Below, in pieces: positions 31,203-50,768 of a stretch of DNA of 59,439 nucleotides. The DNA comes from a virus (Duplodnaviria > Caudoviricetes): positions 1 through 59,439 of IMG/VR virus record IMGVR_UViG_3300037459_000125. One strand, written 5' to 3'. The notes beneath the pieces are model-generated. The model saw only the letters and a program-made list of their open reading frames with translations. It had not been told where the DNA came from and ran no database searches. Position numbers and translations under genes: made by a program. Within the stretch, counting starts at the first letter, position 1. The number at the start of each line of letters is the position of its first letter.

Positions 31203-32528
31203 ATGAAACGATTCGGATTTCTAGCAACTCTTCTTCTCCTACTCCCGACAGTTGCCGGGGCTCAGGGAAACACCAACACCCTTCCTCCGGCTTGCACAGC
31301 CGCCACCTTGTTGACCACCTGTGTTCCTCAGGTCCAAGGGACCATAGCTCGGGTAACGGATGCGGCCTCCGCAACGGTCTGTACAGGCGGCAGCACTGTA
31401 ACAGTAACTTGTCAGTTTGACGGGACTACTTGGGGCCCAATGGCTAACACCTCTGCTACGGGTGGTGTTTGGACCGGTGCCAACGGCGAGACAATCGACA
31501 ATGCTACCGATGATACTATTGCTTTAACCAATAGTGATACCACTAGCACAATCGCAATTACCTTCCATGACTTTGGAGATACCGACGACGATGATATGGC
31601 CCACGGCAGTATTACTGTCAACTGTACTGACGTTGGTACCGGAGCCGAGAATTGTGACGTGGTATTTCGTGGTGTTGACGGTGGTGTAGAGACAACATTT
31701 TTGACCTTTGACGGCAGTGCCGCGAACGCCAATACCAGATTCGTGGGGCTTAGTGGTGGGATCGGGGCCGACGAAATTGCAAATGACATTGTAGACGGCA
31801 CCGAACTGGCAGACACCATCGTTCTGGATGCCACCTTGGGGATCACCTCCGGGGCTGCCGAAGGCATCGCTATGACCCATGCGATGACCAACGACACCGC
31901 CGAGGTTGCCTTCAACCTAGCCATTACCGCGTCGGACACCAGTCCGTCTACCACAGGTCAGTATGGTTTGTATATCGACAACGTAGCCAGCACTGAGGGA
32001 TTGGACGCCGCCATCGTCATCGACAACAGTGATGCCGACGACGCGGTGATTGCCGGTATCCTCTTCGTAGATGCGGGGGGTGGGTTTACCAACGCGATTG
32101 ACACGGCAGGCGGCAATATCACCACGGGTGCGGCACACATCACTGCTCAGATGCCCGTTGTCTCGCTCGCCAGTGGCGCGCTAACACTCAATACGATCCA
32201 TCTGGCTACGGCTGGTGGGGCCGACTACGACATCCCAGATAGTGCTTGCGATGCCGCCGCAGACCTCGGCAACTGGGTCACGGTGGTCTTGGAGGACGCT
32301 TCGGTAGTCGTCTCGATCACCTCGGACGATGCCAGCAACATCTTCACCGTTCCCGGCCTCGGTGCCCTCACCGCTGGTAACGAACTCGACTCTGTGTCCC
32401 ACACGGTGACAGAAGGACAGAGCATCACGCTGACGTGCTTGACGGCCGAGAACTGGTATTTCACTGGCGGCGTCTCGATGCACACCGATGCGACGATAGC
32501 ATGGGCGGACGGCGGTACAGCAGATTGA
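31203..32528 (+). CDS. Signal-peptide-bearing fibre/appendage protein
   Basis: MKRFGFLATLLLLLPTVAGA|Q; 8 Cys; fibre-like beta repeats. Confidence 0.8.
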   Translation: MKRFGFLATLLLLLPTVAGAQGNTNTLPPACTAATLLTTCVPQVQGTIARVTDAASATVCTGGSTVTVTCQFDGTTWGPMANTSATGGVWTGANGETIDNATDDTIALTNSDTTSTIAITFHDFGDTDDDDMAHGSITVNCTDVGTGAENCDVVFRGVDGGVETTFLTFDGSAANANTRFVGLSGGIGADEIANDIVDGTELADTIVLDATLGITSGAAEGIAMTHAMTNDTAEVAFNLAITASDTSPSTTGQYGLYIDNVASTEGLDAAIVIDNSDADDAVIAGILFVDAGGGFTNAIDTAGGNITTGAAHITAQMPVVSLASGALTLNTIHLATAGGADYDIPDSACDAAADLGNWVTVVLEDASVVVSITSDDASNIFTVPGLGALTAGNELDSVSHTVTEGQSITLTCLTAENWYFTGGVSMHTDATIAWADGGTAD

Positions 32529-32550
32529 TCTAACTAGGACCACTCCGGTC

Positions 32551-32604
32551 CACTTTTGGTTCCCCCAGTGGGAACTGGCCCTTCGGGGCTGAAAGGAAAA
32601 CAGA
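32551..32604 (+). promoter_or_regulatory. Second copy of the twin-hairpin leader
   Basis: CTTTTGGTTCCC..GGGAACTGGCCCTTCGGGGCTGAAAGGA. Confidence 0.6.
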
Positions 32605-33519
32605 ATGAGTTATCAAAGTAGAAACGGTAAGACTGGGGCCCGAGGCTCCCATTGGCAAAACCCACTACTCGTTAGTGGCGGGCCGTTGGACGACTGTGCC
32701 CGTGGTATAATTGATGGAGTCGATGGTGTCTACAAGATCTGGTATGAGGACTTCGATGAAGTTCTTCTCGACAATCAGTTTGAAACTGTGGGCTGGACGG
32801 TTACAGACAAGAACACAGCCACAAACCCCAGTAATGTAGTCCTTGGCGCAGACCGGGCATTCTTCCTGAACCCCGGCACTAAGGCTGACTCGGGGACTGA
32901 GCTTCAATTCAACATCCCAGGCACCGCAGCCAGCACCAGCAATATGCACAAGGTCTGCCCAGAGATCGTGGACACCGCCACCCTATTTGATGGTCAGGAG
33001 ATCTTCTTCCAGACCCGGATCGGTAGTGTCTCAGACTCAGCAACCGACAACGACTCCAAGTACATCCTTGGATTCTTTGTGAACAACACAGATCTGATAG
33101 ACGATGCTACAGGTGTCCCTGGTGTACCTGCTGGCGGAGGTTTCGGCTTTTTCAAATCTGAGTTGGGCGTGGTGACCGCAGTTTCAACTGAGGCAGCCAT
33201 TACCGCAGTAGGAACTGCGCTAGTCCCGGCTGTGAGTGAGTTGGCTATGACGGTAACTGTCCCCAACTGGCACACCTATGCAGCCAGATGTCGGATCATC
33301 GACGCCAGTGCTGGAACCGGTTTTACCGACTTTTGGTACGATGGTATCCACAGGCTGCGTCTAGCTACAGTCCCTCACGATGCTACCGATACCTGCTCCT
33401 TCACCATCGGTCTACTCAACGGGCCCTCTCAGATTGCCGATATGCACATCGACTACATCCTGACCGGGATCACCAGACCAGGACTCACTTGGCCCTACAC
33501 TGACGGCACCATCTACTAA
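32605..33519 (+). CDS. Virion protein, jelly-roll/lectin-like, no signal peptide
   Basis: YEDF..GW..IFFQTRI..WHTY..FWYDG..MHIDYI. Confidence 0.7.
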   Translation: MSYQSRNGKTGARGSHWQNPLLVSGGPLDDCARGIIDGVDGVYKIWYEDFDEVLLDNQFETVGWTVTDKNTATNPSNVVLGADRAFFLNPGTKADSGTELQFNIPGTAASTSNMHKVCPEIVDTATLFDGQEIFFQTRIGSVSDSATDNDSKYILGFFVNNTDLIDDATGVPGVPAGGGFGFFKSELGVVTAVSTEAAITAVGTALVPAVSELAMTVTVPNWHTYAARCRIIDASAGTGFTDFWYDGIHRLRLATVPHDATDTCSFTIGLLNGPSQIADMHIDYILTGITRPGLTWPYTDGTIY

Positions 33520-33529
33520 GGGGCCGGCG

Positions 33530-34405
33530 ATGAAACGGCTCCTAACTTTGGGGGCTCTCTTCGGGGGGCTCCTCTTCCCCACGGTCTCTGGGTCTGAGGA
33601 CGTGTTCTCGGTGGCTGCCCATTCCTATGGGGCAGCTAAGTTCACAGCGGACATCTACGGGCACAACGGTCTTGTAGAAAATGCCGAAGAGTCTATTTGG
33701 GACGGCGAAGATGCGATAAGCGCGGGCACTGGACCAGTCCGGTGCTTCTCCAACATGAACACTGGGACTGTACCGACGGCTGCGGCTATCTTCATATCCA
33801 GCGATGATGAGGCCGATGCTGGAGAGGAAATCACGGTGGATGCTCTGGATGTCAACTGGAATCCAGTAACTATCGTCCAGGCTTTGGGTGTCGCGGCAGC
33901 CAGTGGCACCGTTAATGCCCAAATCGGCACAGCGGACCTAATGCGAATCAACCGGGCCTATGTTGCCGGTAGGACGGCTGTCGTCGGAAATATCTATCTT
34001 CACTTGGATGATACGATTGGGACCGATGGCCTTCCAGATACTATTCTGACAGATTTGGTGGCCCACATCACTATCGGCAACAACGAAACCCAGATGGCCT
34101 GCTACTCAGTCCCCAACGACTACACCGCGTTCGTGACTCATATATGTACGGACAATGACACTATTACTGGGTCTGGTACTGTAGACTTCAGACTCCGGGC
34201 CAGTGTCGATGGTCAAATATCCCGAGTTCGATGGGGGCCCCATGTTGTAGCGGACGCCGCTGGAGACTGCCGAAACTTCACCCAGCCCCTGAGTTTCGGT
34301 GAAATGACAGACATTGATATTACTGGGCTGAGTACAGGGGACAGCGCCTCGGCCAATATAGGTTTGGTTCTCGTCAAAAACGGTAGGTCCCTAACTGGCC
34401 CTTGA
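33530..34405 (+). CDS. Signal-peptide-bearing virion protein
   Basis: MKRLLTLGALFGGLLFPTVSG(S)|; YGHN..ESIW..ISS..RINRAYV..GNI..TQMACYSVP phage structural pattern; 4 Cys. Confidence 0.8.
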   Translation: MKRLLTLGALFGGLLFPTVSGSEDVFSVAAHSYGAAKFTADIYGHNGLVENAEESIWDGEDAISAGTGPVRCFSNMNTGTVPTAAAIFISSDDEADAGEEITVDALDVNWNPVTIVQALGVAAASGTVNAQIGTADLMRINRAYVAGRTAVVGNIYLHLDDTIGTDGLPDTILTDLVAHITIGNNETQMACYSVPNDYTAFVTHICTDNDTITGSGTVDFRLRASVDGQISRVRWGPHVVADAAGDCRNFTQPLSFGEMTDIDITGLSTGDSASANIGLVLVKNGRSLTGP

Positions 34406-34414
34406 GGTAGTAGC

Positions 34415-34978
34415 ATGAAACGGCTTTGTTTTATCGTGGGGCTGATCGGGGCCCTCCTATTCCCTACCCTATCCTTGGCCAAAGAAGTGAAGACCGACCA
34501 TACTCCGTGTGAAGAGATGGACACCGACGCTGCGGTTCCTCTGTGGACCAAGGGTCAGTGGATCGCAACAGCCTGTATCCTCTTGTGTGATGGGTATGCG
34601 GCTGCCGACACCGGAGCGGGCTGCGTAGAGTGGGACTTCAACGACTTCCCCGGTATGCCCGACATGATTATCCTAGAGTACGAACAGGAGTCTGATGATG
34701 ATTGTGGGGCCAACGTACCTCAGTTCACTATCGCCACCGGTCCGATGTCCAACGGGACTCTGACCAGCCAGACCAACGCCAGCTACGTTGGGGACCCCAC
34801 CTATGAAATTGGTTCCTCGGCGGTGGTCATAGACGAAACCAACCCACGGGTAACTATCCTAACCGAGACTGCCCCACTAGACCGGTATATATTCGTCACC
34901 CAAACCGGCACGGACACCAACTGCACCGATATCGACATACGGATGTTCTTCTACAGCCGTAAGACGAACATCTACTAG
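34415..34978 (+). CDS. Signal-peptide-bearing virion protein
   Basis: MKRLCFIVGLIGALLFPTLSLA|K; 6 mature Cys. Confidence 0.78.
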   Translation: MKRLCFIVGLIGALLFPTLSLAKEVKTDHTPCEEMDTDAAVPLWTKGQWIATACILLCDGYAAADTGAGCVEWDFNDFPGMPDMIILEYEQESDDDCGANVPQFTIATGPMSNGTLTSQTNASYVGDPTYEIGSSAVVIDETNPRVTILTETAPLDRYIFVTQTGTDTNCTDIDIRMFFYSRKTNIY

Positions 34979-34993
34979 GACTGAGGTGATTAG

Positions 34994-37684
34994 ATGAAGC
35001 TCCGGGCTTTACTGGCCTCCGTCCTCCTACTCTTCCCTAGTGTAGCTCTGGGTACTCAGATCGTCGGTGGAGCTGTACCTGCTGGTGGTGGCATAGTTTC
35101 CTTCCTCCAAGGCAGCCTCCCCTCCCTAGGCAGCGCTGACACCGGCTACCTCGCCTTCGTTACCGATGGGGCTGATGACTCAGACTGTGGGCCAAGCGGG
35201 ACTGGTTCAATCCTAGTCTTCTGTATGTGGAACGGCACAGCTTGGGAGGCCACAGGTGACTCAGGCTCGGGCAGCGGGGACAACTTAACAGTAGACGGCA
35301 GTGGGTTAGCTGATGGGAACTTGGCAGACAGCACTCAGCTTAACGTCACCGCCGACGGCAGTTCTCCCTCCCAGATCACCTTCAATATCATCGCCAACAC
35401 CATCGACGAGGATGAGATAGACACGGACTCTATCTTCAAGGACGAGTTGGCGACCGTAGGCGACTTCAACATTGGTGAAACGGTCCACGTAGACGACTCG
35501 GACGCTACTAAGTTCTTCGCCCGGTCCGCAACGCAGCACCTCGCTTTGGTGGGAGCCGCCGAAAAGGGGGCCAACACCTTTACCGGAACCCAAGACGCCG
35601 CTAGTTGGTCTATTACCACAGCGGGAGTCGCCACTTTCATCTCCCTAGACGACAACGACGGCAGCCCTCTGTGGGGGATCAATACCTCAGGCCACATCAC
35701 AGGGGTCCGGTTCGCGGGGCTCGAAGATGAGAACCTAGTCGGTAAGACCTCTGCCGAGGACATCAGTGGTATTTGGAACTTCGGTACCGCCGACGGCCTT
35801 GAGATCCCCAACGGACCAGTGTCCGAACTCACTGGCTCCCCCACCGTCGGTAGTCTTTTCCAAGTTGACGACGGAGCCAACGCCACTGACTGTGCCACAG
35901 GCAGCTCAACCACTGATGTTCTCTGTCTCTACAATGGCTCCGGATGGGCAGCCGTAGCCGCGGGTGGCACCACAGCCTGGGACTCCGTCGGCGACCCCTC
36001 CGGGGACGGGTCCGTCGCTATGGCAGAGCTGGATCAGGACCTCGCTTGGGACACCGGGAACAGCACGGCTGCGGTCTTCGACGGCCTCACCCTTAGTCTT
36101 GACTATGATCCTACTTCCACAGACTCCGGAGCCCAGCATGTTCTAAGGGTTGTTCAAATAAACAGCGGTGCGGATGTTACAGGTCAGCCTGAAGCTCTTA
36201 TTCTTCTCGAAAATCTAGATACTGATTCAGACGATGCTGTAGCCGCCGCTCTATTGATCCGAGGGACTACTGCTGTTCCCATTGCTATTGATCTTTCGGA
36301 CGCCGAGATTGTTACCGCCATCGACATCGGAGCCAACGATATTGTCTTCTCCAGTGGTACCCTTAGTTCCACAGACCTAGAGATCCTGGACGACGGCTCC
36401 ATCGCCTCCAGTGAGATCACCGACAATACTATCACTGCCGCAGATATCGCGGCCACCGTTACGATGGCGGACGAGGACTTTCTGGACTTCAGCGCGGCCC
36501 TGATCGACGCGGCCTCGGAGGGGATCTACCTACCCCGGCAGAACGCCGATAGTTGTGCTGCCTCGGTTGGGGAAGGTCAGATCTGTTGGGATGACAGCAA
36601 CGACAACCTTTGGATAGGTGACGGAACCGCGGCCCAGCAGATGAACCTCTCCGGTATCGGGGCCTTCAGTGACAGCTCGGACCCCGCTATCCTCAACACC
36701 ACCACCAAGGATGTAGTTGTAGGCGCAGCGCAGATCAACACAGCCAAACTAACGGTGGACGGGGATGCCGATCAGGTCCAGTTCACAGTCCAAGGTCACT
36801 CCACTCAGTCATTAGTTACTGAATTCATCGTCCACGAGACCAGTGGTGGGACTGAGTTGTACTCTCTGGATACCAGTGGAGACCTTGAGGTCCAGTCCAT
36901 TCAAGACATCGACGGGCCGGGGACTCTCTGGCAGATTGACATTAACGGCGCAGCGACATTTGTATCAGTCACCACTGGGACCAGCCTAACTCCCTCCATA
37001 GTCTTCAACGACTCCAGCTCGGGCTCGGAAGCCACCGACGCCAGTATCTTCGTAGATGCCACTGATGCTGTAGGAGGTCAAGAGGACGTAGACATGACCT
37101 TCCGGGTTCAGGTCAACTCCACCCTCACCGACCGGATCTTCATCAACGCCGACGGCCACACAGAGATCCAGAACTCCAATCTCCGACTTGCCGATAGTCT
37201 CTACATTCTCGAACAGGCCGATGCGGACGGGGACGTATCCACCTACGGACAGCTTTGGGTGGACAACACTACTCCCCAACTCCTGAAGTTCACAACTGAG
37301 GCGGGAGTAGACACCACCCTCGGAGTCGCGGCCACCGTCGCGGGCACCACCTTCGAGGAGTGCTTCGTGGTGTACGCCCCAACGGCAGAGATCCAAGCCA
37401 CCGACGACATCCAAAGTGTCTGGCGCGCTGCCGCAGCCCTCACCATAACGGAGGTATTCTGCGAGACCGATACCGGAACCGTAACGATGGACATTCAGGT
37501 AGACAGCGGGAGTACCTTAGATGTTATGGGTACCGATCTCGTCTGCGACGTAAGTCCCGGAGAAAACGACAGTACCAGTCTCACAGGTAGTATGGCCGAT
37601 GGTGACCGTCTTGACTTCCTCATCTTCGCGGTAGCCTCCAACCCCAAACGTCTAACCTTGTGTATTGAATATGACTTTGACTGA
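34994..37684 (+). CDS. Signal-peptide-bearing long fibre protein
   Basis: MKLRALLASVLLLFPSVALG|T; repeated VTD..C..C.NG.W modules; 10 Cys; very acidic. Confidence 0.82.
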   Translation: MKLRALLASVLLLFPSVALGTQIVGGAVPAGGGIVSFLQGSLPSLGSADTGYLAFVTDGADDSDCGPSGTGSILVFCMWNGTAWEATGDSGSGSGDNLTVDGSGLADGNLADSTQLNVTADGSSPSQITFNIIANTIDEDEIDTDSIFKDELATVGDFNIGETVHVDDSDATKFFARSATQHLALVGAAEKGANTFTGTQDAASWSITTAGVATFISLDDNDGSPLWGINTSGHITGVRFAGLEDENLVGKTSAEDISGIWNFGTADGLEIPNGPVSELTGSPTVGSLFQVDDGANATDCATGSSTTDVLCLYNGSGWAAVAAGGTTAWDSVGDPSGDGSVAMAELDQDLAWDTGNSTAAVFDGLTLSLDYDPTSTDSGAQHVLRVVQINSGADVTGQPEALILLENLDTDSDDAVAAALLIRGTTAVPIAIDLSDAEIVTAIDIGANDIVFSSGTLSSTDLEILDDGSIASSEITDNTITAADIAATVTMADEDFLDFSAALIDAASEGIYLPRQNADSCAASVGEGQICWDDSNDNLWIGDGTAAQQMNLSGIGAFSDSSDPAILNTTTKDVVVGAAQINTAKLTVDGDADQVQFTVQGHSTQSLVTEFIVHETSGGTELYSLDTSGDLEVQSIQDIDGPGTLWQIDINGAATFVSVTTGTSLTPSIVFNDSSSGSEATDASIFVDATDAVGGQEDVDMTFRVQVNSTLTDRIFINADGHTEIQNSNLRLADSLYILEQADADGDVSTYGQLWVDNTTPQLLKFTTEAGVDTTLGVAATVAGTTFEECFVVYAPTAEIQATDDIQSVWRAAAALTITEVFCETDTGTVTMDIQVDSGSTLDVMGTDLVCDVSPGENDSTSLTGSMADGDRLDFLIFAVASNPKRLTLCIEYDFD

Positions 37685-38447
37685 TCGGGGAAAACTACTC
37701 GGACTCCTTGGTCTACTCTGTCTCCTTTCCTCCCCCACCGGGGCTGGGATCATCTACAAGGAGAGTGCCGGTGGCGGAGGTGGTGGCGGAACGATCTTTA
37801 GCGAGAACTGTTCGAGCCTGTCTGAGTGGACGGCTGCTAGTAGCGGGTCGGCCAGTGTGGACGTGGTCGCAAACCAGTGCCTTGGCAACCTCGCAGCCAA
37901 CTTCGAGGATGCGGCCATACTCCAAGGCCCGCTCGACAGTACCAGTGAGTTCTGCTCAATGAAGGTCATCACGATTAACACGGCCGATTCCAACAAGGTC
38001 GGTTGTATATTCAGAGCACCTGCCACTCCAGGCGTTCATTACTCAGCATTCTTCAACAACGGCAACGGTTCGTATTTGATAGAAAACCAGACCGCCGGAC
38101 ACGACTTTGTGGACGGGGTACTCGGGGGCACGAACTGTGGCTGCTCTGCATATGTGGACATCGGCAACAACGACTACATAGGCATTACGTTGTCCGGCAC
38201 GGGTTCATCAACGACGGTGAACTGGTGGGACTTTGGTAGCTCTGCCCCGTCTGACCTCGAAGACCCCGGCACTTGGGGTGATGCCCACACGGTCACTTGT
38301 ACCTGTTCCACGAGCGAGATCGCAACCGTGGTCACAGCAGAAAACTTCACCCTGATTGACGTAGCCGGGGACTGTGGACCTGAGATGACGGGCCTTGCAG
38401 CTAGTGAAATCACCATCGACGACTTCGCCTGTGGGGACACACCTTGA
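37671..38447 (+). CDS. Signal-peptide-bearing lectin-like appendage protein
   Basis: MTLTDRGKLLGLLGLLCLLSSPTGA|G; 10 mature Cys. Confidence 0.75.
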   Translation: MTLTDRGKLLGLLGLLCLLSSPTGAGIIYKESAGGGGGGGTIFSENCSSLSEWTAASSGSASVDVVANQCLGNLAANFEDAAILQGPLDSTSEFCSMKVITINTADSNKVGCIFRAPATPGVHYSAFFNNGNGSYLIENQTAGHDFVDGVLGGTNCGCSAYVDIGNNDYIGITLSGTGSSTTVNWWDFGSSAPSDLEDPGTWGDAHTVTCTCSTSEIATVVTAENFTLIDVAGDCGPEMTGLAASEITIDDFACGDTP

Positions 38448-39562: not shown

Positions 39563-41343
39563 GGTGGTTGGTATTGGTACTGATCCTGTTTGCCTCTCCT
39601 GCTTGGGCGGGGGTGCGGTCTCATGCCAGTAATTGCCTGAGCAGTGTCTCCTGTACTGCTGGGATGGATACTGAGATGTGCTTCCAAGTAGACACCCAAG
39701 CCTTCTTTATTTGTGATGGGGCCACTACTACCTTTATTCAGATAGGCTCCGCCGGGGCCGGCGGAACCCATCCCATCGCAGCGGGTGACTACGCGGCTGA
39801 CTCGGTGGATGTGGATGCGATTTTGAAGGTGGGAAACGCCGCATCGAATCCCGACCTGGCCGGAGACGAGATGTGGTTCGGCCCCGGTGGCCTGATCTTC
39901 GAGGGTACCGTGGATGACTTTGAGGGCACCTTGGGGGTTGGAACCCTGTCATCCGACAAAATATGGATCCTCCCGGACCTTACCGGAACCCTTGCCCTGA
40001 TCGGTTCACCAATCTTCACAGGAGATCCCACCGGGCCAACGGCTTCCGGTGGAGACAGTGACTTCTCGCTTGCCACTACGGCGTTTCACCAAAGCGAGTT
40101 GCTCACCGAGGATGAGGTAGAGGCTTTCATATTCGACACGGATACCGAGAACGTCTCGGGTGTTTGGACATGGAACGACGATGTCCAAGCTAAATTTGGA
40201 ACTGATGCCGATGCAGGTATTTACTACCTTTCTGCTACGGATAAGATGATAATTTTCGGTCCGAATATGTTAATTGATGCGGAGCAACAAGGGAAGGTAA
40301 CAGTAGTGGGCGGGTTGTTAGCTTCCGCCAGCGACAACGAGTTCAGCCGCTTCGGAGACAGCCCGACACACATCACTGATCTTGACTTGCGGGATCGACT
40401 TGTAGCTACCTTGCCGCGAAACAGCCTAACCCTGTCGTCTAGGACTGGTCTATTCGTACACGAGGACACCGATGCCCTCAGCGGAACCATCGACAAGGCG
40501 GGGCAGGCACTCAATACTTTCGCGTTCACAACTGACCTTTCGACGGTGGACAACAGCGTGACGACCAATGCTGGCGGAGCGGTGGGAAACAAGTCCGCGT
40601 TTACTCACCGTGGAGAGGGCACATACCAACTAGGCGGCGGCGTCTCTGCCCAGGTTAAACTTGGGGGAGCTAATGAGGACGGCACCATCGTAGACGGTTA
40701 CGCCCTCCATGCCGTAGGCCCCGATGGTGGAACCAGTGGAACCGCTGGAGACGGTATCACCCGGGCTATGGGTCTATGGGTCCGGGATGGTGAGTCAGGG
40801 ACCAACATAGAGAACTACTACGGGATACGCATCGACGACATCACCGCCCTCTCCGATTCCGGGGTTGAGGTAGGGATCAGGCTCGACGGAGCGGACGACT
40901 ACGCACTGTGGTTCAACAACGATTCCGGGACTGCTAACGACGGGATCACCTTCGGAGCTGATGCGACGGTGAACCTCTACCGGAGCGCGGCGAACATCCT
41001 AAAAACCGACGACACCTTCATAACCGCTACAGACCTCCATTCTCTCGGTGGGTTCGTGGGGGACGTGGAGACCGTCACTGGAACTTCAGCAACCCTCGGG
41101 GCCGACGATCATATCATGCTTATCGATGACGACACCGCTGGTGGGGCTGTTACTATCACCCTTCCCGCATGCGCAAGCCACAACGGTCGGCAGTACCATG
41201 TCAAGAAACTAGGGACCACCGGGAACGTCACCATAGACGGCAACGCCAGCGAAACTATCGACGGGGGACTAACCGCTGTCCTAACAGCACAGTACGAGTC
41301 CGTTGGCCTCGTCTGCGACTCTAGCAACTGGAGTATCTTCTAA
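39559..41343 (+). CDS. Signal-peptide-bearing fibre protein
   Basis: MRWLVLVLILFASPAWA|G; SPIFTGDPTGPT..ATTAF fibre repeat; C-terminal TITLP..GRQYHVKK..ETIDG..YESV..W; 6 Cys. Confidence 0.82.
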   Translation: MRWLVLVLILFASPAWAGVRSHASNCLSSVSCTAGMDTEMCFQVDTQAFFICDGATTTFIQIGSAGAGGTHPIAAGDYAADSVDVDAILKVGNAASNPDLAGDEMWFGPGGLIFEGTVDDFEGTLGVGTLSSDKIWILPDLTGTLALIGSPIFTGDPTGPTASGGDSDFSLATTAFHQSELLTEDEVEAFIFDTDTENVSGVWTWNDDVQAKFGTDADAGIYYLSATDKMIIFGPNMLIDAEQQGKVTVVGGLLASASDNEFSRFGDSPTHITDLDLRDRLVATLPRNSLTLSSRTGLFVHEDTDALSGTIDKAGQALNTFAFTTDLSTVDNSVTTNAGGAVGNKSAFTHRGEGTYQLGGGVSAQVKLGGANEDGTIVDGYALHAVGPDGGTSGTAGDGITRAMGLWVRDGESGTNIENYYGIRIDDITALSDSGVEVGIRLDGADDYALWFNNDSGTANDGITFGADATVNLYRSAANILKTDDTFITATDLHSLGGFVGDVETVTGTSATLGADDHIMLIDDDTAGGAVTITLPACASHNGRQYHVKKLGTTGNVTIDGNASETIDGGLTAVLTAQYESVGLVCDSSNWSIF

Positions 41344-42803
41344 TGGCATATCAACCATTTACAGAATCAGATAAAACAGCCTTTGGAGAACTAAGTGTTG
41401 CTGAACTGACACCAGTAGTTCAGCTACATTTTCCATATAACGTCAATGATTTTCTTGTAGATGCGAGATTGAATAATGGAGCAGCCACAGTAGACAGTAA
41501 CCGTCTTAAGCTTTCTACGGGGGCTGCTGCAAATCAGTCGGCTCAATTACTCTCAAAAAGAGCAGTTACATATCAACCGGGTCAAGGGGGTTTGTGGAGA
41601 GGTACGGCGGTGTTTACAGCAGGTGCCGCTAACAGTACTCAATATATAGGGATTGGAAGTAGCAGTGATGGATACTTCTTCGGGTTTAACGGAACGGCCT
41701 TTGGTATTATGCGCCGACAGGGGGGTAGTCCAGAGGTAAGATTACTCACCGTAACAACAGGATCATCCACGGCTGAAGATATTACAATTACATTAGATGG
41801 GGATGCTGTTGCAACGGTTACGGTTACGAACACTGCAGACACCACACTCACAGCCAATGAAATAGCGGCACATGATTATTCAAACCTAGGACAAGGTTGG
41901 GCAGCTCATAGTATGGGAGCAACTGTAAGGTTTGAATCTTACAACGCAGCTTCTCAAACCGGTACTTATTCTTTGAGCAGCGCGACAACCGCTGTCGGAA
42001 CATTTGGACAAGACGTAGCGGGGGCAGCTCCCACTGAAACTGTCGTTGCTCAAACTTCGTGGAATGTAGACAAAGCTGCTGGGGCTGAAGACCTTCCGAG
42101 TTTAACCTTTACTAATGGAAATGTGTTTCAAATTCAGTATCAGTGGTTAGGGTATGGAGCAATCAATTTTTATATAGAACATCCTGGAGACGGTGGTTTT
42201 CATCTGGTTCACAGAATACAATACGCAAACTCCGCTACAGTCCCTTCGGTAGATAATCCGACACTTCCTCTATGCGCAGCCGTTAAAAACACCAGCAACA
42301 CTACAGATATTGTTATGTTTGTTGGTTCAATGGGTGGATTTATAGAGGGAAAGGAATCAGAGTTAGGTATAAGGCGTGGAGCATCTTCGGGTGAAGTCAC
42401 AGTAGGGACAACAGAACTTCCTCTACTTACTATTCATAATAGAATTATACACAACAGTGTTGTGAATCGTAAAAGGATTAGACTCGCCTTTGCGGTATTG
42501 TCTAACGACGGCACCAAGTCGGGGACGATAAAGTTCAAGACGAACGCCACTTTAACGGGAGCGGTGTTCTCTGATATAGATGCTTCTAACTCTGTCGTAA
42601 GAACAGATACTACTGCAACAGCCATAACTGCCTCAACAGGTGTTGAACAATTCGATGTCGCTCTGCCGAAGTCAGGACAGGTTGTTATTGATTTACATGA
42701 CCTGAAGATTGAGCTTGAGCCGGAAGATTTCCTTACAATATCTGGGCTTGGCTCAGCGGCTTCCGCAGCTTTTACAGTATCGGTAAATTGGGTGGAAATA
42801 TAG
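41343..42803 (+). CDS. Virion structural protein, no signal peptide, visibly AT-richer gene
   Basis: TAFGEL..F.Y, YQPGQG, DGYFFG, FQIQYQWLGYG; 1 Cys. Confidence 0.75.
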   Translation: MAYQPFTESDKTAFGELSVAELTPVVQLHFPYNVNDFLVDARLNNGAATVDSNRLKLSTGAAANQSAQLLSKRAVTYQPGQGGLWRGTAVFTAGAANSTQYIGIGSSSDGYFFGFNGTAFGIMRRQGGSPEVRLLTVTTGSSTAEDITITLDGDAVATVTVTNTADTTLTANEIAAHDYSNLGQGWAAHSMGATVRFESYNAASQTGTYSLSSATTAVGTFGQDVAGAAPTETVVAQTSWNVDKAAGAEDLPSLTFTNGNVFQIQYQWLGYGAINFYIEHPGDGGFHLVHRIQYANSATVPSVDNPTLPLCAAVKNTSNTTDIVMFVGSMGGFIEGKESELGIRRGASSGEVTVGTTELPLLTIHNRIIHNSVVNRKRIRLAFAVLSNDGTKSGTIKFKTNATLTGAVFSDIDASNSVVRTDTTATAITASTGVEQFDVALPKSGQVVIDLHDLKIELEPEDFLTISGLGSAASAAFTVSVNWVEI

Positions 42804-42838
42804 AGGGTTTGTGCTAACCTCCCCGCGGGGACCGTGAT

Positions 42839-43117
42839 ATGACCAAGTGGCAGAGAGGCGTAGGAGCTACCATAACGGCGGCGGCCCTGATCTTTGGGGG
42901 TAAGGCATGGGTGGGGCATCTGGCCCAAGCGGGAGAGGACCACAGGAGTCTAACTGAGGCCCAAAAGACCCAGAAGATGCTGGTGGGCCTGACCTCAGCC
43001 ATCAGCTCCAGGATTCAGTTGGAGGATGCGGCATCGGCTCGGGACGTGAAGCTCTGTGAGGAGGGATTGATTACCAACAAGACTGTTTGCAGGCAAGCTC
43101 GCCTGAGAATGCAATAG
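42839..43117 (+). CDS. Membrane-anchored lysis-cassette protein
   Basis: N-terminal TM, coiled coil, Cys pair. Confidence 0.55.
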   Translation: MTKWQRGVGATITAAALIFGGKAWVGHLAQAGEDHRSLTEAQKTQKMLVGLTSAISSRIQLEDAASARDVKLCEEGLITNKTVCRQARLRMQ

Positions 43118-43127
43118 GAGTACCAAG

Positions 43128-43292
43128 ATGGACAATCTAGACAAGTATGTGGAGATCGCCTTGTTGGTGATTGGTGTGTTTGCGGCTATCGCAACCATCA
43201 CCCCCAACGAGAGCGACAACAAGATCGCGCAGTTCCTCCTCAACATCATCAATAAGTTGGGCCTGAACATTGGCAACGCCAAGAACCAGTAG
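43128..43292 (+). CDS. Putative holin (54 aa, below ORF-track cutoff)
   Basis: AGGAG SD; MDNLDKYVEIALLVIGVFAAIATITPNESDNKIAQFLLNIINKLGLNIGNAKNQ. Confidence 0.65.
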   Translation: MDNLDKYVEIALLVIGVFAAIATITPNESDNKIAQFLLNIINKLGLNIGNAKNQ

Positions 43293-43294
43293 TC

Positions 43295-43552
43295 GTGGGT
43301 TGGGAGATCTACGCAGGCATCGGAGCCGCGGCAGCCGTAGTGGTCGGTGTGATCTACATCGCCATGCGAATGATCCGCAAAGAAGCCCGAGCCGTTGGAG
43401 GTGAACGTGAGGCCCGAGAGAAACTGGAAGAGTTCATCGAGCTGGATAAGAAGCGCCACGCGCTGGACGGCCTTCCTGTTCCTCTTGGTAAGCGTGAACA
43501 ATCTCGCCGGTTGCGCGTTCTTCTCGAAGCCCGTGAACGTGATCGGGATTGA
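43295..43552 (+). CDS. i-spanin (Rz-like)
   Basis: N-terminal TM then charged helix; overlapped by a lipoprotein gene. Confidence 0.7.
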   Translation: MGWEIYAGIGAAAAVVVGVIYIAMRMIRKEARAVGGEREAREKLEEFIELDKKRHALDGLPVPLGKREQSRRLRVLLEARERDRD

Positions 43553-43685
43553 GCGGTGCCCGGTGATGTCCAATGAGGCCATCCTGAACTGGGTAGAGAT
43601 CTACCCTCGGACCAACGTACACCTTCAGGCTTGGATGGGACAAACCATCCTACACTGTGAAAAGGTGGAGGCGATGCTTAAGTAA
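43407..43685 (+). CDS. o-spanin (Rz1-like lipoprotein)
   Basis: GGAGGT before GTG; lipobox LAG|C; +1 overlap with the i-spanin. Confidence 0.75.
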   Translation: MRPERNWKSSSSWIRSATRWTAFLFLLVSVNNLAGCAFFSKPVNVIGIERCPVMSNEAILNWVEIYPRTNVHLQAWMGQTILHCEKVEAMLK

Positions 43686-44560: not shown

Positions 44561-44563
44561 CTG

Positions 44564-45256
44564 ATGGGAACAATGACACGCGGCGACTTCAAAACTGAGC
44601 TGGGGTTCCTCCTTCGTAACCGTACCGACTCGGACGCCACGAACGAAACTCGGATTGAGCAGTGGATCAACCAAGCGTACCACTATATGTGCCACCCTTC
44701 GGTTCACGATTTCTACCAGATGAATTCGTTCGATACCAGTACAACCTTGGTTACTGGGGACAATACATATAGTGTAGAAACATTAAACTCCAGAACTATG
44801 ATAGCAATAAATTCAATCTCCCACATTAAAGCCACTACATTCACAAACACAACTAACAGGACAGCCCTCAAACCCAGAAGTATCCACTGGTTTGAGCGCA
44901 GGACCCTGCAATCTGGACCTCCACTTTTCTTTGCTAGAAGCGGTGGCCAGATATTTATCTCAGGGGTTCCTCGTTCCCAGGAGAGCGGACAGCTTCTCAG
45001 GATACATTACACCCACTCTCCCGATAATTTGAACCCAGACACCGCCCAAACCGTTCTCCCCCGCTACTACGACCGAGTCCTCCTGAAGTTCGCACAGTCA
45101 TTCGCCGAGGGTGATCTAGGTGACCGGGCGAGGGCTCTCCTAACACTCAAAGAAGCATCAGGGCTGTTGAACAACACCCCTAACGATCCGGAACTCGACG
45201 CTGAACAAGTTGGCAGCCGAGTAGACCTTGTCCTCGAAAACCCGATGGGGCCATAA
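44564..45256 (+). CDS. Head-tail adaptor/tail tubular A-like protein
   Basis: MTRGDFKTEL..IEQWINQAY..LVTGDNTYS..GPP..LPRYYDRVL. Confidence 0.78.
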   Translation: MGTMTRGDFKTELGFLLRNRTDSDATNETRIEQWINQAYHYMCHPSVHDFYQMNSFDTSTTLVTGDNTYSVETLNSRTMIAINSISHIKATTFTNTTNRTALKPRSIHWFERRTLQSGPPLFFARSGGQIFISGVPRSQESGQLLRIHYTHSPDNLNPDTAQTVLPRYYDRVLLKFAQSFAEGDLGDRARALLTLKEASGLLNNTPNDPELDAEQVGSRVDLVLENPMGP

Positions 45257-45257
45257 A

Positions 45258-46883
45258 ATGAACCTTAAGAAGTATCTATTGACTCTGATCGGTGTCGGTT
45301 TACTCCTACCCTCTGGGGCGGGGGCGGAGGTCTGGGCAGCTTCAGGGTTCGAGGACAGCCCTGCTAACTCCGATGCGGCCTCCGGTGGTGCCGGGAAGAT
45401 CCGCGACACCCGTGGGGAGGTCCGTCAGCGGTTGGAGGTCGAGCATTTCTTCGGGGACACCGCGGCCTCCGAGGATGATGATAATGGGCTTCACCGGATT
45501 GGGGCGGCCAGATGCTACGTTCAAGACGCAGCACCCACAGGACTCTTCGATTCTCATTCCGGTATCGGTCTTATCACTGATCTGGCAGACCACAACACCT
45601 CAGGGTCCGGGGAAGGAACCCTCGCTAACACAGCCACCGGAGCTGCGGGGGCTGCTGTAGAGGACGATGTCGGGCATGCTAGGTGCTGGATTGATGAAGA
45701 TGGGGCGGATGGTAACACCAATGATGAGTGTACGGGGAGCGCAACCTCGGCAGGATCCGGTTCACCCACAGACTCCACCCCCGCTTGTTGTACTGCGGCA
45801 GACACCGGTACCTGTGATCTGGATGACAACAAGATGTATGTCTACCTCGGAGTGGCAGGGGATGGGGGCACCCCTCCGACGGGACTGGTGGCTGGTTGGC
45901 AAGAAGTCAAAACCCGACCGGATGGTACCGGTTCGGGAGTTCGGGTGAAAGCTGGGGCCCCCAACATTCTCAGCAACTCAGACTTCGACTTTAATGGTTG
46001 TACTGGGACCACCCGACCAACTGCTTGGTCTGAAACTGGGAGCCCAACCTTCACCTATGCGGGTGGGGGTACTACCCAGGGGGTAGGTTGTAATGTACTG
46101 GTCACAGATGTGGGCGGTGGGGACGACATCCGACAGACACTCACCAATGTAAAGGGAGGCACCACCACCTATCGAGTAACCGCTCAAGTCAGGGAAACAG
46201 CATCGGATGATATTTGTACCCTCTCCACCTCTGGGGCTGGGACAGAAGTGACCGGGATGGTGTCCTCTGGCACCGCTTGGGTGCAGCTTGATGGGTTCTT
46301 CATTACCAGTGCTGCGACAGATACGGTTACTATAATCCTGACCAACACAGCAGCCGGAGATATTTGCCACTGGGATCACATTGGAGTCTATCGACAGGAG
46401 ACGATAGAGGTTCCGCAGGCAGGGATTATTGCGGTCTATGATACCTACTTGACTTCCGACGGAGCTGATATTGAGGAGGCTGGCGTAGGCTACGCTGATG
46501 TCCCCAGCCTATCCATCACCATCGTTCCTCCAACGGAAGGATACGTCGTTAGTGTCCGTGCCAATATCTCAGTGGGCTGTGATGGCTCTTGTAATATCGG
46601 TAGTGGAGGCGGTAACAACGAGGGTGTCATCTGTCGGTTGGAGGTGGGGGGCAATGAAGTGGCAGGTACAGTCCGCTCCTTTGTGGCGATGGACTCTACT
46701 CTAGACCCGGGTGGTCAGATCATTATTGACTATATTAATGTTATTCCTATAGCGGGTACCTCACTCGTCTACACTGTCGGATGTAAAGAGGTGGGGGCGA
46801 ACGCGATGATCTTCAATCTAGAAACCGCTGATGGAGACGATACCGAGTCCTCTCTGTCTCTGATCGCCTTCCCCCCACACTAG
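45258..46883 (+). CDS. Signal-peptide-bearing tail fibre with CBM-like domain
   Basis: MNLKKYLLTLIGVGLLLPSGAGA|E; P..GA.KIR..R..VRQRL..EH anchor-like segment; NILSNSDF..W..IRQT; 14 Cys. Confidence 0.8.
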   Translation: MNLKKYLLTLIGVGLLLPSGAGAEVWAASGFEDSPANSDAASGGAGKIRDTRGEVRQRLEVEHFFGDTAASEDDDNGLHRIGAARCYVQDAAPTGLFDSHSGIGLITDLADHNTSGSGEGTLANTATGAAGAAVEDDVGHARCWIDEDGADGNTNDECTGSATSAGSGSPTDSTPACCTAADTGTCDLDDNKMYVYLGVAGDGGTPPTGLVAGWQEVKTRPDGTGSGVRVKAGAPNILSNSDFDFNGCTGTTRPTAWSETGSPTFTYAGGGTTQGVGCNVLVTDVGGGDDIRQTLTNVKGGTTTYRVTAQVRETASDDICTLSTSGAGTEVTGMVSSGTAWVQLDGFFITSAATDTVTIILTNTAAGDICHWDHIGVYRQETIEVPQAGIIAVYDTYLTSDGADIEEAGVGYADVPSLSITIVPPTEGYVVSVRANISVGCDGSCNIGSGGGNNEGVICRLEVGGNEVAGTVRSFVAMDSTLDPGGQIIIDYINVIPIAGTSLVYTVGCKEVGANAMIFNLETADGDDTESSLSLIAFPPH

Positions 46884-50759: not shown

Positions 50760-50768
50760 GAGATAGGT

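What the first reader, a model, noticed from the sequence alone, without database searches (positions are those of the whole stretch)
31203..46883. Virion fibre/appendage proteins built for export: eight signal-peptide, even-cysteine proteins inside the morphogenesis operon
Seen: the ORFs at 31203, 33530, 34415, 34994, 37671, 38444, 39559 and 45258 start with a basic-hydrophobic-P-x-small Sec-type leader, e.g. MKWILLFLLLFASPAWA and MKRFGFLATLLLLLPTVAGA. By my count their mature chains hold 8, 4, 6, 10, 10, 10, 6 and 14 Cys, all even (1 in 256 if parity were random). MCP, adaptor and nozzle have 1 Cys each, the large ejection proteins none, and none has a leader. The mature sequences still carry ordinary phage fibre motifs, and one gene sits between the adaptor and nozzle genes. 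Known: tailed phages normally assemble in the cytoplasm, and disulfides form in the periplasm via Dsb. Inference: this phage exports its appendages, oxidises them in the periplasm and attaches them at or after inner-membrane lysis. An alternative is that the genes were repurposed as host-surface proteins. I know of no described tailed phage with this arrangement, but could not search.
Basis: partly seen in the sequence, partly recalled or inferred. Interest (0 to 1): 0.93.

Follow-up and report, generated by a model that had tools for sequence, protein, structure and literature searches.

The report
Phage fibre-like proteins with export leaders
A complete uncultivated short-tailed phage genome encodes eight fibre- or lectin-like late proteins that each begin with a bacterial export signal and carry paired cysteines, which suggests that this phage group makes its appendages outside the cytoplasm, something not described for tailed phages.

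Summary
The window is a complete 59.4-kb phage genome (127-bp terminal repeat). Eight late-operon ORFs have a basic, hydrophobic, small-x-small N-terminus and mature Cys counts of 8, 4, 6, 10, 10, 10, 6 and 14.

Three families were searched for homologs. The leader is kept in 4 of 4, 13 of 13 and 16 of 16 N-complete proteins, and in 18 of 18 informative metagenome loci. Of 49 distinct leader proteins, 48 have an even mature Cys count. All 9 with a Cys inside the leader are odd in total and even once the leader is removed. Cys columns appear and vanish in pairs: 17 of 21, against 0 to 4 for most control residues.

The gene at 45258 lies between an SU10-type adaptor and the presumed nozzle in 13 related loci. 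SU10 has its tail-fibre genes in that position. Its C-terminal half folds as tandem carbohydrate-binding modules. A spanin-type lysis cassette sits in the same operon.

Sec export with periplasmic oxidation is very likely. Attachment to the virion at lysis is the best reading but is not shown. No printed precedent was found.

The parts
31203..32528 (+). Leader protein 1, 441 aa; predicted leader about aa 1-20, 8 mature Cys in local pairs (31/40, 60/70, 141/151)
   Evidence: ortholog in L026 (521 aa, leader, 14 Cys)
32605..33519 (+). Leaderless 304-aa protein inside the block; 72% identical ortholog in L026; function unknown
33530..34405 (+). Leader protein 2, 291 aa, 4 mature Cys; phrog_8198; leaderless relatives in T4-like cyanophages
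34415..34978 (+). Leader protein 3, 187 aa; 7 Cys in total, 6 when mature (one Cys in the leader)
34994..37684 (+). Leader protein 4, 896 aa, 10 mature Cys; three copies of a C-x(9-11)-C hairpin motif
   Evidence: no PDB, Pfam or PHROG match
37671..38447 (+). Leader protein 5, 258 aa; 11 Cys in total, 10 when mature
38444..39562 (+). Leader protein 6, 372 aa, TTG start in a TTGA overlap, 10 mature Cys; orphan family whose 4 homologs all keep the leader
39559..41343 (+). Leader protein 7, 594 aa, TTG start, 6 mature Cys; modular tail-fibre-type protein with a spike-like C-terminal beta-sandwich (aa 500-594)
41343..42803 (+). Leaderless 486-aa protein, phrog_1645 'virion structural protein'; a module shared with otherwise unrelated phages and Synechococcus myophages
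42839..43117 (+). 92-aa N-terminal TM plus coiled-coil ORF, conserved in L026; part of the lysis cassette, exact role unassigned
43128..43292 (+). 54-aa hydrophobic ORF, holin-like; counterpart of 60 aa in L026
   Evidence: reading of the sequence; no family match sought
43295..43552 (+). 85-aa i-spanin-like ORF (N-terminal TM, charged helical periplasmic part)
43395..43685 (+). o-spanin-like lipoprotein ORF with a lipobox (L-A-G-C), overlapping the previous ORF in another frame; conserved in L026
43685..44560 (+). Leaderless, Cys-free 291-aa conserved protein upstream of the adaptor; function unknown
44564..45256 (+). Head-to-tail adaptor, SU10 type (PF24175, E 6e-12)
45258..46883 (+). Leader protein 8, 541 aa, 14 mature Cys; conserved core gene between adaptor and presumed nozzle; conserved mature N-terminus followed by tandem CBM-type beta-sandwiches
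46893..48770 (+). Presumed nozzle, 625 aa, 1 Cys; 51-57% identical orthologs in L025, L026 and L031; named by position only

Best explanation
This is a complete genome of an uncultivated short-tailed phage of a diderm host. It makes its fibre- or receptor-binding-type proteins as Sec pre-proteins.

Step 1 (inferred from sequence, strongly supported). The eight proteins are threaded unfolded through SecYEG. Signal peptidase I removes a leader of about 17 to 28 residues. All remaining cysteines are paired by the host's periplasmic oxidation system.

Step 2 (inferred). The folded lectin- and fibre-like proteins stay in the periplasm during late infection, because nothing marks them for outer-membrane passage.

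Step 3 (inferred, not shown). The holin/spanin cassette in the same operon opens the inner membrane, so fibreless particles meet the oxidised appendages. The 45258 family docks through its conserved mature N-terminus on the adaptor and nozzle. The variable block at 31203-41343 supplies exchangeable head or tail fibres.

My confidence in steps 1 and 2 is about 0.9. My confidence in the whole chain, including virion attachment, is the figure given in the confidence field (0.45).
For: Leaders are translated. SD-like motifs or coupled TTGA starts precede them and no usable downstream start exists.

Leader shape is kept while its sequence drifts. This holds in 4 of 4 homologs of 38444, 13 of 13 of 33530, 16 of 16 N-complete homologs of 45258 and 18 of 18 metagenome loci that include the 5' end. 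In alignment A2 the leader is the least conserved part (0.44) and conservation begins right after the predicted cut (0.64-0.71).

Disulfides. 48 of 49 distinct leader proteins have an even mature Cys count, spanning 2 to 34. In 9 of 9 proteins with a Cys in the leader, the count is even only after the leader is removed. 17 of 21 variable Cys columns have an identical-pattern partner, against 0 to 4 of 10 to 36 for W, H, M, Y, F, K, R and Q, and 12 of 67 for N. Many pairs are local, C-x(5-13)-C.

Co-occurrence of leader and Cys within one family. The cyanophage homolog Syn1_111 has no leader, and its residues at all four Cys positions are non-Cys.

Appendage nature.
- The 45258 model has two confident beta-sandwiches (aa 240-541), with TMt 0.70-0.76 to CBM4, CBM16 and a porphyran-binding CBM.
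- Its neighbours among viral models are CBM-bearing tail fibre, minor tail and J proteins.
- The conserved N-terminus with more variable distal domains is the usual fibre pattern.
- 39559 has tail-fibre PHROG hits. Its confident C-terminal domain is nearest to a tailspike depolymerase, CBA120 TSP4 and a capsid spike.
- Its relative P0030 keeps the leader and N-terminal module but carries a pectate-lyase-like domain.

Position. The order adaptor, 45258 family, presumed nozzle is kept in 13 loci, down to 28% adaptor identity. In SU10 the genes between adaptor gp11 and nozzle gp17 include the fibre genes gp12, gp13 and gp16 (passages).

Second lineage. In G001/L020 a run of leader proteins follows the internal virion protein gene, with three families shared with the window.

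Lysis. The spanin-type cassette implies an outer membrane and a lytic merging of compartments.
Against: - No tool here predicts signal peptides. My scorer is home-made and has false positives (50769).
- No virion proteome, no host and no cultured relative are available. The 45258 protein and the presumed nozzle have no match in 50,697 GenBank phage records.
- Leaderless conserved proteins of unknown function (32605, 43685, 48770) and the leaderless phrog_1645 protein (41343) could be the true appendages. The phage therefore does not demonstrably depend on the leader proteins.
- The block at 31203-41343 differs in content between the window and its close relative L026. That fits exchangeable fibres, but it equally fits accessory cargo.
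- Both monomer models are poor over their N-terminal halves. No docking domain has been seen.
- One of the 49 proteins has an odd mature Cys count (L020_7517). It and a few relatives have Lys-rich sequence after the hydrophobic stretch and may be uncleaved anchors.
- Attachment would have to happen in the short interval of lysis or in the lysate. That is known for in vitro complementation of other phages (recalled), not as a natural route.
- The homologs are related to one another, so the parity counts are not independent trials.
Confidence: 0.45

Rival explanations
1. The proteins are exported and oxidised but are not virion parts. They are periplasmic lectins and enzymes, released at lysis, that act on the host envelope. 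Possible roles are binding or cutting surface-glycan precursors, blocking superinfection, or coating receptors on debris so that progeny are not trapped.
For: All the evidence for export and disulfides applies equally. The domains seen are glycan-binding or glycan-cutting types (CBM folds; the pectate-lyase-like domain in relative P0030). The content of the 31203-41343 block differs between close relatives, as accessory cargo does. Leaderless candidates for the true appendages exist (41343 is phrog_1645; 43685 and 32605). Phage-type trimeric fibres with signal peptides do serve a cell rather than a virion in Bdellovibrio (passages).
Against: The eight genes take up about 10.7 kb of a 59.4-kb genome and sit inside the morphogenesis operon. 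The 45258 family is a fixed core gene between adaptor and presumed nozzle in 13 loci, where SU10 has fibre genes. Its mature N-terminus is the best conserved part, which is unexpected for a free lectin. No signal for crossing the outer membrane is evident, so the proteins could not reach the surface before lysis (inference).
Confidence: 0.3
2. The hydrophobic N-termini are uncleaved signal anchors. The proteins stay tethered to the outer face of the inner membrane, either as a staging platform for appendages or as membrane proteins of the infected cell.
For: Some relatives have Lys-rich sequence directly after the hydrophobic stretch (two L020 ORFs of 626 and 368 aa; P0036 and P0065). One of these has an odd Cys count after the assumed cut.
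Against: In the window's eight and in the 45258, 38444 and 33530 families, small residues at -3/-1 with a proline a few residues upstream are kept while the hydrophobic core drifts. In 9 of 9 proteins with a Cys in the leader, the count is even only after the leader is removed. Conservation begins at the predicted +1 position.
Confidence: 0.1
3. The proteins are not exported. The hydrophobic N-terminus is a structural or membrane-inserting element of a cytoplasmically assembled virion, and the disulfides form by oxidation after release, as in virions with disulfide networks.
For: Tailed-phage virions with extensive disulfide networks exist, for example phage Milano. In the passages I read, terms for a signal peptide, periplasm or cytoplasm did not occur in its main text.
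Against: The N-termini have the full three-part signal-peptide layout, and its shape is kept across 28-100% identical homologs. The leaderless late proteins of the same phage avoid Cys (0.41%). That split is hard to explain if every protein folded in one compartment. A Cys inside the leader breaks parity unless the leader is removed.
Confidence: 0.07
4. The leaders are a gene-calling or chance artefact. They would be translated from wrong starts or be chance hydrophobic stretches.
For: A gene caller elsewhere began 39559 at an internal ATG (P0026). Two of the starts are TTG.
Against: No other start exists within 90 codons for 38444. Homologs from independent contigs begin with M plus a leader. 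P0030 conserves the leader region of 39559. The heuristic flags 9 of 42 window ORFs against 3 of 104 control ORFs.
Confidence: 0.01

Closest known systems
Tail fibres of SU10/T7-type podophages, which dock on the adaptor (SU10 gp12/gp13/gp16; PMC9509320, passages read)
   Same: The adaptor family is the same (PF24175). The fibre-like gene lies between adaptor and nozzle. The proximal end is conserved, the distal domains vary more and are glycan-binding.
   Different: No sequence similarity to SU10 fibres was found or tested. The proteins here have a Sec-type leader and paired Cys. The term 'disulfide' did not occur in the SU10 paper's main text. That SU10 and T7 fibres assemble in the cytoplasm is recalled knowledge.
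Coat proteins of filamentous phages (Inoviridae pIII and pVIII), which are inserted or exported through the inner membrane before assembly (recalled; phage-display papers seen only in the listings)
   Same: A virion protein is made with a signal peptide, oxidised in the periplasm (pIII) and joined to the particle outside the cytoplasm.
   Different: Inoviruses are not tailed. They extrude through the envelope without lysis and have no capsid, portal or adaptor. Here the head and tail core are leaderless and a lysis cassette is present.
Bdellovibrio MAT (mosaic adhesive trimer) fibres (PMC10769870, passages read)
   Same: The layout is the same: a signal peptide, then a conserved N-terminal domain, then phage-type fibre modules with swappable tips. 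This shows that such fibres can fold after export.
   Different: MAT fibres are chromosomal genes of a bacterium and are displayed on its own surface. No sequence comparison with MAT proteins was made here. The window's genes sit in a phage morphogenesis operon.
Exported accessory proteins in phage tail regions (lambda Lom and Bor, T5 Llp, phi80 Cor; recalled) and exported lysis proteins (spanins, SAR endolysins; PMC3556154, passages read)
   Same: These are phage-encoded proteins with Sec or lipoprotein signals, encoded among late genes. The window has its own example in the o-spanin-like ORF.
   Different: Those are single, small proteins, either lipoproteins or outer-membrane proteins. Here there are eight proteins of 187 to 896 aa with no lipobox and with fibre or CBM domains, and one of them is a fixed core tail-module gene.
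Disulfide-locked virions such as Agrobacterium phage Milano (PMC10811340, passages read)
   Same: Disulfide bonds stabilise the parts of a tailed phage that face the outside world.
   Different: In Milano the bonds link sheath and baseplate subunits. The terms 'signal peptide' and 'periplasm' did not occur in its main text. Here the Cys-bearing proteins are exactly the ones with leaders, and the core virion proteins avoid Cys.

Membership tests
Sec-type (SPase I) signal peptide | Positively charged n-region, uninterrupted hydrophobic h-region of about 10-15 residues, and a polar c-region with small residues at -3 and -1 | tested here: met
   All eight pass my heuristic, with mean hydropathy of 2.07-3.63 over the best 9-residue window, K/R near the start and A/G/S at -1. 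This is a home-made scorer, not SignalP.
Sec-type (SPase I) signal peptide | The shape is conserved but the sequence is not, and conservation of the mature protein begins at the cut | tested here: met
   Homolog sets: 4 of 4, 13 of 13, 16 of 16 and 18 of 18. Majority fraction is 0.44 in the leader and 0.64-0.71 just after it.
Sec-type (SPase I) signal peptide | Actual translocation and cleavage | not testable with these tools
   Only indirect evidence exists: in 9 of 9 proteins with a Cys in the leader, the Cys count is even only after the leader is removed.
Lipoprotein (SPase II) signal | A lipobox ending in Cys at +1 | tested here: not met
   None of the eight has Cys at the predicted +1. 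The o-spanin-like ORF at 43395 does have L-A-G-C.
Tat signal | A twin-arginine motif before the h-region | tested here: not met
   The n-regions read K-R, K-x-R, K-K or a single K/R, with no R-R.
Disulfide-bonded secreted protein | Cysteines are used in pairs: even counts, and correlated gain and loss | tested here: met
   48 of 49 distinct proteins have an even count. 17 of 21 variable Cys columns are partnered, against 0-4 for eight control residue types and 12 of 67 for N. Pairs are listed.
Disulfide-bonded secreted protein | The paired Cys lie close together in the three-dimensional structure | not testable with these tools
   The structure tool returns no coordinates, and none were laid in /data.
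Phage tail fibre / receptor-binding protein (virion component) | Domains of the kinds found in known fibres and spikes | tested here: met
   45258: tandem CBM folds, with CBM-bearing tail proteins as viral neighbours. 39559: tail-fibre PHROGs and a spike-like C-terminal domain. The support is at domain level only. Global TM-scores are low and the N-terminal halves are poorly modelled.
Phage tail fibre / receptor-binding protein (virion component) | A conserved place in the tail gene module | tested here: met
   The order adaptor, 45258 family, presumed nozzle holds in 13 loci. The SU10 fibre genes lie between adaptor and nozzle. In G001 the leader run follows the internal virion protein gene.
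Phage tail fibre / receptor-binding protein (virion component) | Physical presence in the virion and docking on adaptor, nozzle or capsid | not testable with these tools
   No proteome or cultured relative is available. The one complex job gave no verdict and counts neither way.
CBM_4_9-type carbohydrate-binding module | A beta-jelly-roll fold matching solved CBMs | tested here: met
   TMt is 0.76 to 8xmz, 0.70 to 2zew and 0.69 to 2y6j. PF02018 is precomputed on 3 of 20 homologs. The window protein itself has no Pfam hit at E up to 0.1.
Accessory exported phage proteins of the Lom/Bor/Llp kind | A single small outer-membrane protein or lipoprotein, not conserved as a core module gene | tested here: not met
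   There are eight proteins of 187-896 aa with no lipobox. The 45258 family is fixed in 13 loci. The family's defining features are recalled, not taken from a call.
Bdellovibrio MAT fibre family | The conserved ~130-aa N-terminal beta-rich domain after the signal peptide, and for some members an S74 chaperone-protease | not tested
   No MAT sequence was compared. No Peptidase_S74 hit appeared in the Pfam scans of the eight proteins.

The most novel reading that the evidence does not exclude
A whole clade of tailed phages builds its virion in two compartments. Heads and tail cores assemble in the cytoplasm. The receptor-binding appendages are exported by Sec, trimmed by signal peptidase and disulfide-locked in the periplasm. 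They join the particle only when the phage's own lysis cassette merges the compartments. Lysis would then be the last step of morphogenesis, and host Sec, Lep and Dsb functions would be host factors for infectivity.
Probability: 0.45. Interest if true: 0.95.

Novelty: new variant of a known kind. Interest (0 to 1): 0.82.

Why it matters
Textbook morphogenesis of tailed phages takes place entirely in the cytoplasm. Their appendages are thought to cope with the outside world without compartment-specific chemistry. Here the cytoplasmic virion proteins avoid cysteine, while fibre- and lectin-like proteins carry a leader and strictly paired cysteines. The pattern holds across many independent contigs and in a second phage lineage.

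If the exported proteins are virion parts, three things follow.
- Lysis becomes an assembly step.
- Host secretion and disulfide machinery become determinants of phage infectivity.
- Annotation pipelines that discard signal-peptide proteins as non-structural would miss the receptor-binding proteins of such phages.

If they are not virion parts, a lytic phage spends about 18% of its genome on a periplasmic or released glycan-binding arsenal. That would also be undescribed.

Either way the question can be tested with ordinary tools: leader fusions, virion proteomics and cryo-EM, once a host is found. Disulfide-stabilised receptor-binding modules may also be useful as robust binders.

Tried and rejected
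Relatives through the 486-aa phrog_1645 protein. The 14 loci share only that gene and have no leader run. It is a travelling module, so these loci served as controls.

Relatives through the portal. The three loci are too short to reach the block.

The 896-aa protein in viral contigs: no relative. A2 in viral contigs: none. A1 and A2 in genome contigs: none. No prophage relative and no host name were obtained.

Host. It stays unknown. The only leads are the spanin-type cassette, which implies a diderm, and two structural proteins whose nearest named relatives are in Synechococcus myophages. I did not use the look-up of sequencing runs or read laying.

PDB sequence searches for 39559, 34994 and 46893 gave nothing usable. 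Pfam and PHROG were blank for most of the eight. The Atlas gave leads below 0.9 for 45258 (C1q/CBM phage clusters) and nothing for 43685.

A phage-encoded Dsb, thioredoxin or signal peptidase was not found among the ORFs scanned. Not every small ORF was scanned.

Leader-coding DNA as recombination linkers is rejected. Pairwise identity is 14 to 41 of 66 nt.

The Mtd_N-like motif matched weakly in only 1 of 5 segments and below the Pfam cut-off. I treat it as a lead.

Complex prediction. Two adaptor copies plus three copies of residues 24-120 of the 45258 family scored 0.00 in both runs. The tool's verdict was 'no answer', and it counts neither for nor against binding.

Cys-Cys distances in the models could not be measured because no coordinates are returned.

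Literature. Six searches aimed at a precedent listed no tailed phage with Sec-leader fibres. I read listings and abstract starts only, except for passages of PMC3556154, PMC9509320, PMC10811340 and PMC10769870. Subscription journals and supplements were not visible. The supplementary tables of the SU10 paper, which list its genes, were not seen.

The eukaryotic-virus idea (signal peptides as in enveloped viruses) is rejected because of SD motifs, coupled overlapping starts, tRNAs and spanins.

Full report
WHAT THE WINDOW IS. The window is the whole record: one contig of 59,439 bases. Its first and last 127 bases are identical, so the genome is complete. Genes on the minus strand (about 0.8-17.4 kb) include a UDG-family protein, a PD-(D/E)XK nuclease and exonuclease-like proteins. 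The plus-strand late operon holds the following.
- Large terminase (22558-24324), a portal-size protein (25373-27349) and the major capsid protein (29651-30571).
- An SU10-type adaptor (44564-45256; PF24175, E 6e-12).
- An acetyltransferase (49324-49830).
- Large Cys-free proteins at 49830-55907, taken as ejection proteins by size and place.

Two tRNA genes lie at the strand switch. No GenBank phage is close. The capsid protein finds 14 records, all below 32% identity.

THE OBSERVATION. Their starts are as good as sequence can show. Four ATG starts follow GGAG/GAGG-like motifs. The two TTG starts overlap the preceding stop codon (TTGA). For 38444 there is no other start in the first 90 codons.

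A home-made signal-peptide heuristic picks out exactly these eight among the larger late proteins, plus one evident false positive at 50769. It flags 9 of 42 window ORFs of at least 150 aa, against 3 of 104 in 14 unrelated phage loci. None of the eight has a lipobox or a twin-arginine motif.

One correction is needed. The leader proteins have an ordinary Cys density (1.99%, against 2.08% in early ORFs). The leaderless late proteins are depleted (0.41%).

COMPARATIVE EVIDENCE FOR EXPORT AND CLEAVAGE. I searched three of the eight families.
- 38444 family. Four homologs at 29-55% identity all keep a leader ending in small-x-small, and six Cys are invariant.
- 33530 family. All 13 proteins (46-100% identity, the window's own included) have a leader and exactly four mature Cys.
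- 45258 family. Twenty proteins were found. Sixteen have their N-terminus and all sixteen carry a leader. The other four are N-terminally truncated entries. Among 21 metagenome loci, 18 include the 5' end and all 18 have a leader. The other three are cut by the contig end.

In alignment A2 the leader is the least conserved segment (majority fraction 0.44). Conservation jumps right after the predicted cut (0.64-0.71 over residues 24-100, peaking at 0.81). The distal half scores 0.52-0.58.

EVIDENCE FOR DISULFIDES. I collected 49 distinct leader proteins: the window's eight, homologs, the close relative L026, the second lineage L020, and L031 read from its internal start. Of these, 48 have an even mature Cys count, ranging from 2 to 34. 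P0017 was dropped by the script because its record starts upstream; from its internal Met it has a leader and 10 Cys.

Nine of the 49 have one Cys inside the leader. All nine are odd in total and even after the leader is removed. That is indirect evidence for cleavage.

In A2, 17 of 21 variable Cys columns share their exact presence/absence pattern with another Cys column. The controls are W 2 of 12, H 2 of 13, M 0 of 14, Y 4 of 24, F 0 of 32, K 0 of 10, R 4 of 21, Q 4 of 36 and N 12 of 67.

Many pairs are local hairpins, C-x(5-13)-C. The homologs are related, so these are not independent trials. The informative point is that the counts change often and always by two.

LEADER AND CYS GO TOGETHER WITHIN ONE FAMILY. 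The 33530 protein belongs to phrog_8198 (E 3.6e-20). Its named relatives are in T4-like cyanophages (20 records), and one is annotated as a virion structural protein (annotation only). The Syn1 homolog has no leader, and its residues at all four Cys positions of the window protein are non-Cys.

WHAT THE PROTEINS ARE.

45258 protein. With the 20-row alignment, AlphaFold2 gives mean pLDDT 68.5. Residues 1-235 are poor. Residues 240-541 form two confident beta-sandwiches. Foldseek places these with carbohydrate-binding modules (TMt 0.69-0.76 to single CBMs) and with a Klebsiella phage tailspike that carries one. Among viral models the neighbours are CBM-bearing tail fibre, minor tail and host-specificity proteins. 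PF02018 is precomputed on 3 of its 20 homologs.

39559 protein. It is built from very common modules: 12,319 representatives at E up to 0.001. It has tail-fibre PHROG hits at aa 129-183. Its model is poor (pLDDT 59.5) except for residues 500-594. The nearest solved structures to that domain are a tailspike depolymerase (E 8.8e-6), CBA120 TSP4, a baseplate protein and a capsid spike. In GenBank this domain ends a protein annotated as a T7 tail fibre.

P0030, a relative of 39559. It keeps the leader and the double-disulfide N-terminal module (48% identity over 84 residues) but inserts a pectate-lyase-like domain. That kind of module swapping is usual in receptor-binding proteins.

Of the top 150 representatives, 20 are flagged as leader-bearing by my heuristic. 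Leader-bearing fibre-like proteins are therefore not confined to this genome.

GENE CONTEXT. L026 is a true relative, with a capsid protein 82% identical. It reads: capsid, a 161-aa protein, a leader protein, the 304-aa leaderless protein, four more leader proteins, the lysis cassette, the 43685 homolog, the adaptor, the 45258 homolog and the presumed nozzle. Orthologs of 31203, 34415, 33530 and 45258 are present. The 896-, 258-, 372-, 594- and 486-aa genes are absent, and two other leader genes stand in their place.

The adaptor lies directly upstream of the 45258-family gene in 13 loci, down to 28% adaptor identity. In SU10, whose adaptor family this is, adaptor gp11 is followed by long-fibre genes gp12 and gp13 and short-fibre gene gp16 before nozzle gp17. 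The adaptor has a fibre dock domain (passages).

A second, otherwise different lineage (G001; loci L019-L022) shares three of the leader families. It places a run of leader, Cys-rich ORFs right after its internal virion protein gene.

LYSIS CASSETTE. Between the 486-aa gene and 43685 lie four small plus-strand ORFs that are conserved in L026.
- A TM plus coiled-coil ORF.
- A small hydrophobic holin-like ORF.
- An i-spanin-like ORF.
- Overlapping it in another frame, a lipoprotein ORF with a lipobox.

This implies a host with an outer membrane and a lytic end of infection. No endolysin was identified.

MECHANISM. Shown by sequence and comparison: the leaders are translated, they have signal-peptide shape, and they are under selection for that shape. 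The cysteines are used in pairs. The proteins carry fibre, spike and lectin domains. One of them is a fixed tail-module gene.

Inferred from established knowledge of Sec, signal peptidase I and Dsb (recalled): the proteins are exported unfolded, cut, and oxidised in the periplasm, and they stay there until lysis.

Inferred and unproven: they dock on fibreless particles when the inner membrane opens. I put export and oxidation at about 0.9, and the full two-compartment assembly model at 0.45.

The main rival is a set of exported glycan-binding and glycan-cutting proteins that are not virion parts (0.3). It is favoured by the variable content of the block and by the existence of leaderless proteins of unknown function. 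It is disfavoured by the fixed position and conserved N-terminus of the 45258 family. Uncleaved anchors (0.1), cytoplasmic assembly with later oxidation (0.07) and artefact (0.01) are less likely, for the reasons given under rival explanations.

COMPARISON WITH WHAT IS KNOWN. The parts are familiar: podophage adaptor-docked fibres, CBM tips, spanins and signal peptides. The combination is not. The nearest analogues are these.
- Filamentous-phage coat proteins, which are exported before assembly (recalled).
- Bdellovibrio MAT fibres, which have a signal peptide, a conserved N-domain and phage-type fibres but serve a cell.
- Small exported accessory proteins of tail regions (recalled).
- Disulfide-locked virions such as Milano. 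The passages I read from that paper did not mention export.

Six literature searches listed no tailed phage with Sec-leader appendages. They cover only the held open-access library, and I read listings only. I therefore rate the finding as a new variant of a known kind. It would be categorically new if two-compartment assembly is proven.

LIMITS.
- No signal-peptide predictor, model coordinates, host or proteome were available.
The 54-58-kb contigs that hold homologs could therefore not be read.
- The complex prediction gave no verdict.
- Supplements were closed.

Noticed in passing
window 1-127 and 59313-59439: There is an exact 127-base direct terminal repeat, so the contig is a complete (circularly closed or terminally redundant) genome of about 59.3 kb.
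   Followed up: yes
window 42839-43685: A lysis cassette sits in the middle of the morphogenesis operon. It holds a TM plus coiled-coil ORF, a holin-like 54-aa ORF, an i-spanin-like ORF and an overlapping lipobox ORF, all conserved in L026 7421-8305. No endolysin was identified anywhere in the genome.
   Followed up: partly
window 41343-42803: The leaderless 486-aa phrog_1645 protein is a travelling module. It is 47-59% identical in eight viral contigs that share nothing else with this genome. It also occurs in Synechococcus myophages (26-30%) and in a 485-kb uncultured phage record (44%).
   Followed up: partly
window 38444 and 39559: Two consecutive genes start at TTG inside a TTGA overlap with the upstream stop, which suggests translational coupling. 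A gene caller elsewhere began the second one at an internal ATG (39676), which cuts off the leader. Such mis-starts would hide leaders in databases.
   Followed up: partly
window 16345-16420 (-) and 18360-18435 (+): tRNA-His and tRNA-Asn genes lie in the region where transcription switches from the minus to the plus strand.
   Followed up: no
window 49324-49830: An acetyltransferase-family gene (phrog_1249, E 4.3e-10) lies between the presumed tail genes and the ejection-protein genes. It is conserved in L031 (44% identity).
   Followed up: no
window 32605-33519: A leaderless 304-aa protein with 4 Cys sits inside the run of leader genes. It is the best conserved gene of that block (72% identical in L026, which has 2 Cys). 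No family match was found.
   Followed up: partly
window 31203-46883 (the eight proteins): The leader proteins are very acidic and poor in Lys and Arg: D+E is 8.6-15.5% and K+R is 1.1-5.6%. The 441-aa protein has only 1.1% K+R. They are also rich in Gly, Thr and Ser.
   Followed up: no
window 42814-43002 (-): A 62-aa antisense ORF happens to contain the same five-residue leader end as genes 38444 and 39559. It overlaps a conserved plus-strand ORF, so it is probably a chance ORF.
   Followed up: no
L020 7517-9397 and 12248-13354; P0036, P0065: Some relatives have a hydrophobic N-terminus followed at once by a Gly/Ala and Lys-rich stretch. One of them has an odd Cys count. These may be uncleaved signal anchors rather than cleaved leaders.
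   Followed up: partly
L031 1152-4670: A protein of about 1110 aa is related to the 38444 family. Read from an internal Met it has a leader and 34 mature Cys, the largest member of the leader families seen here.
   Followed up: partly
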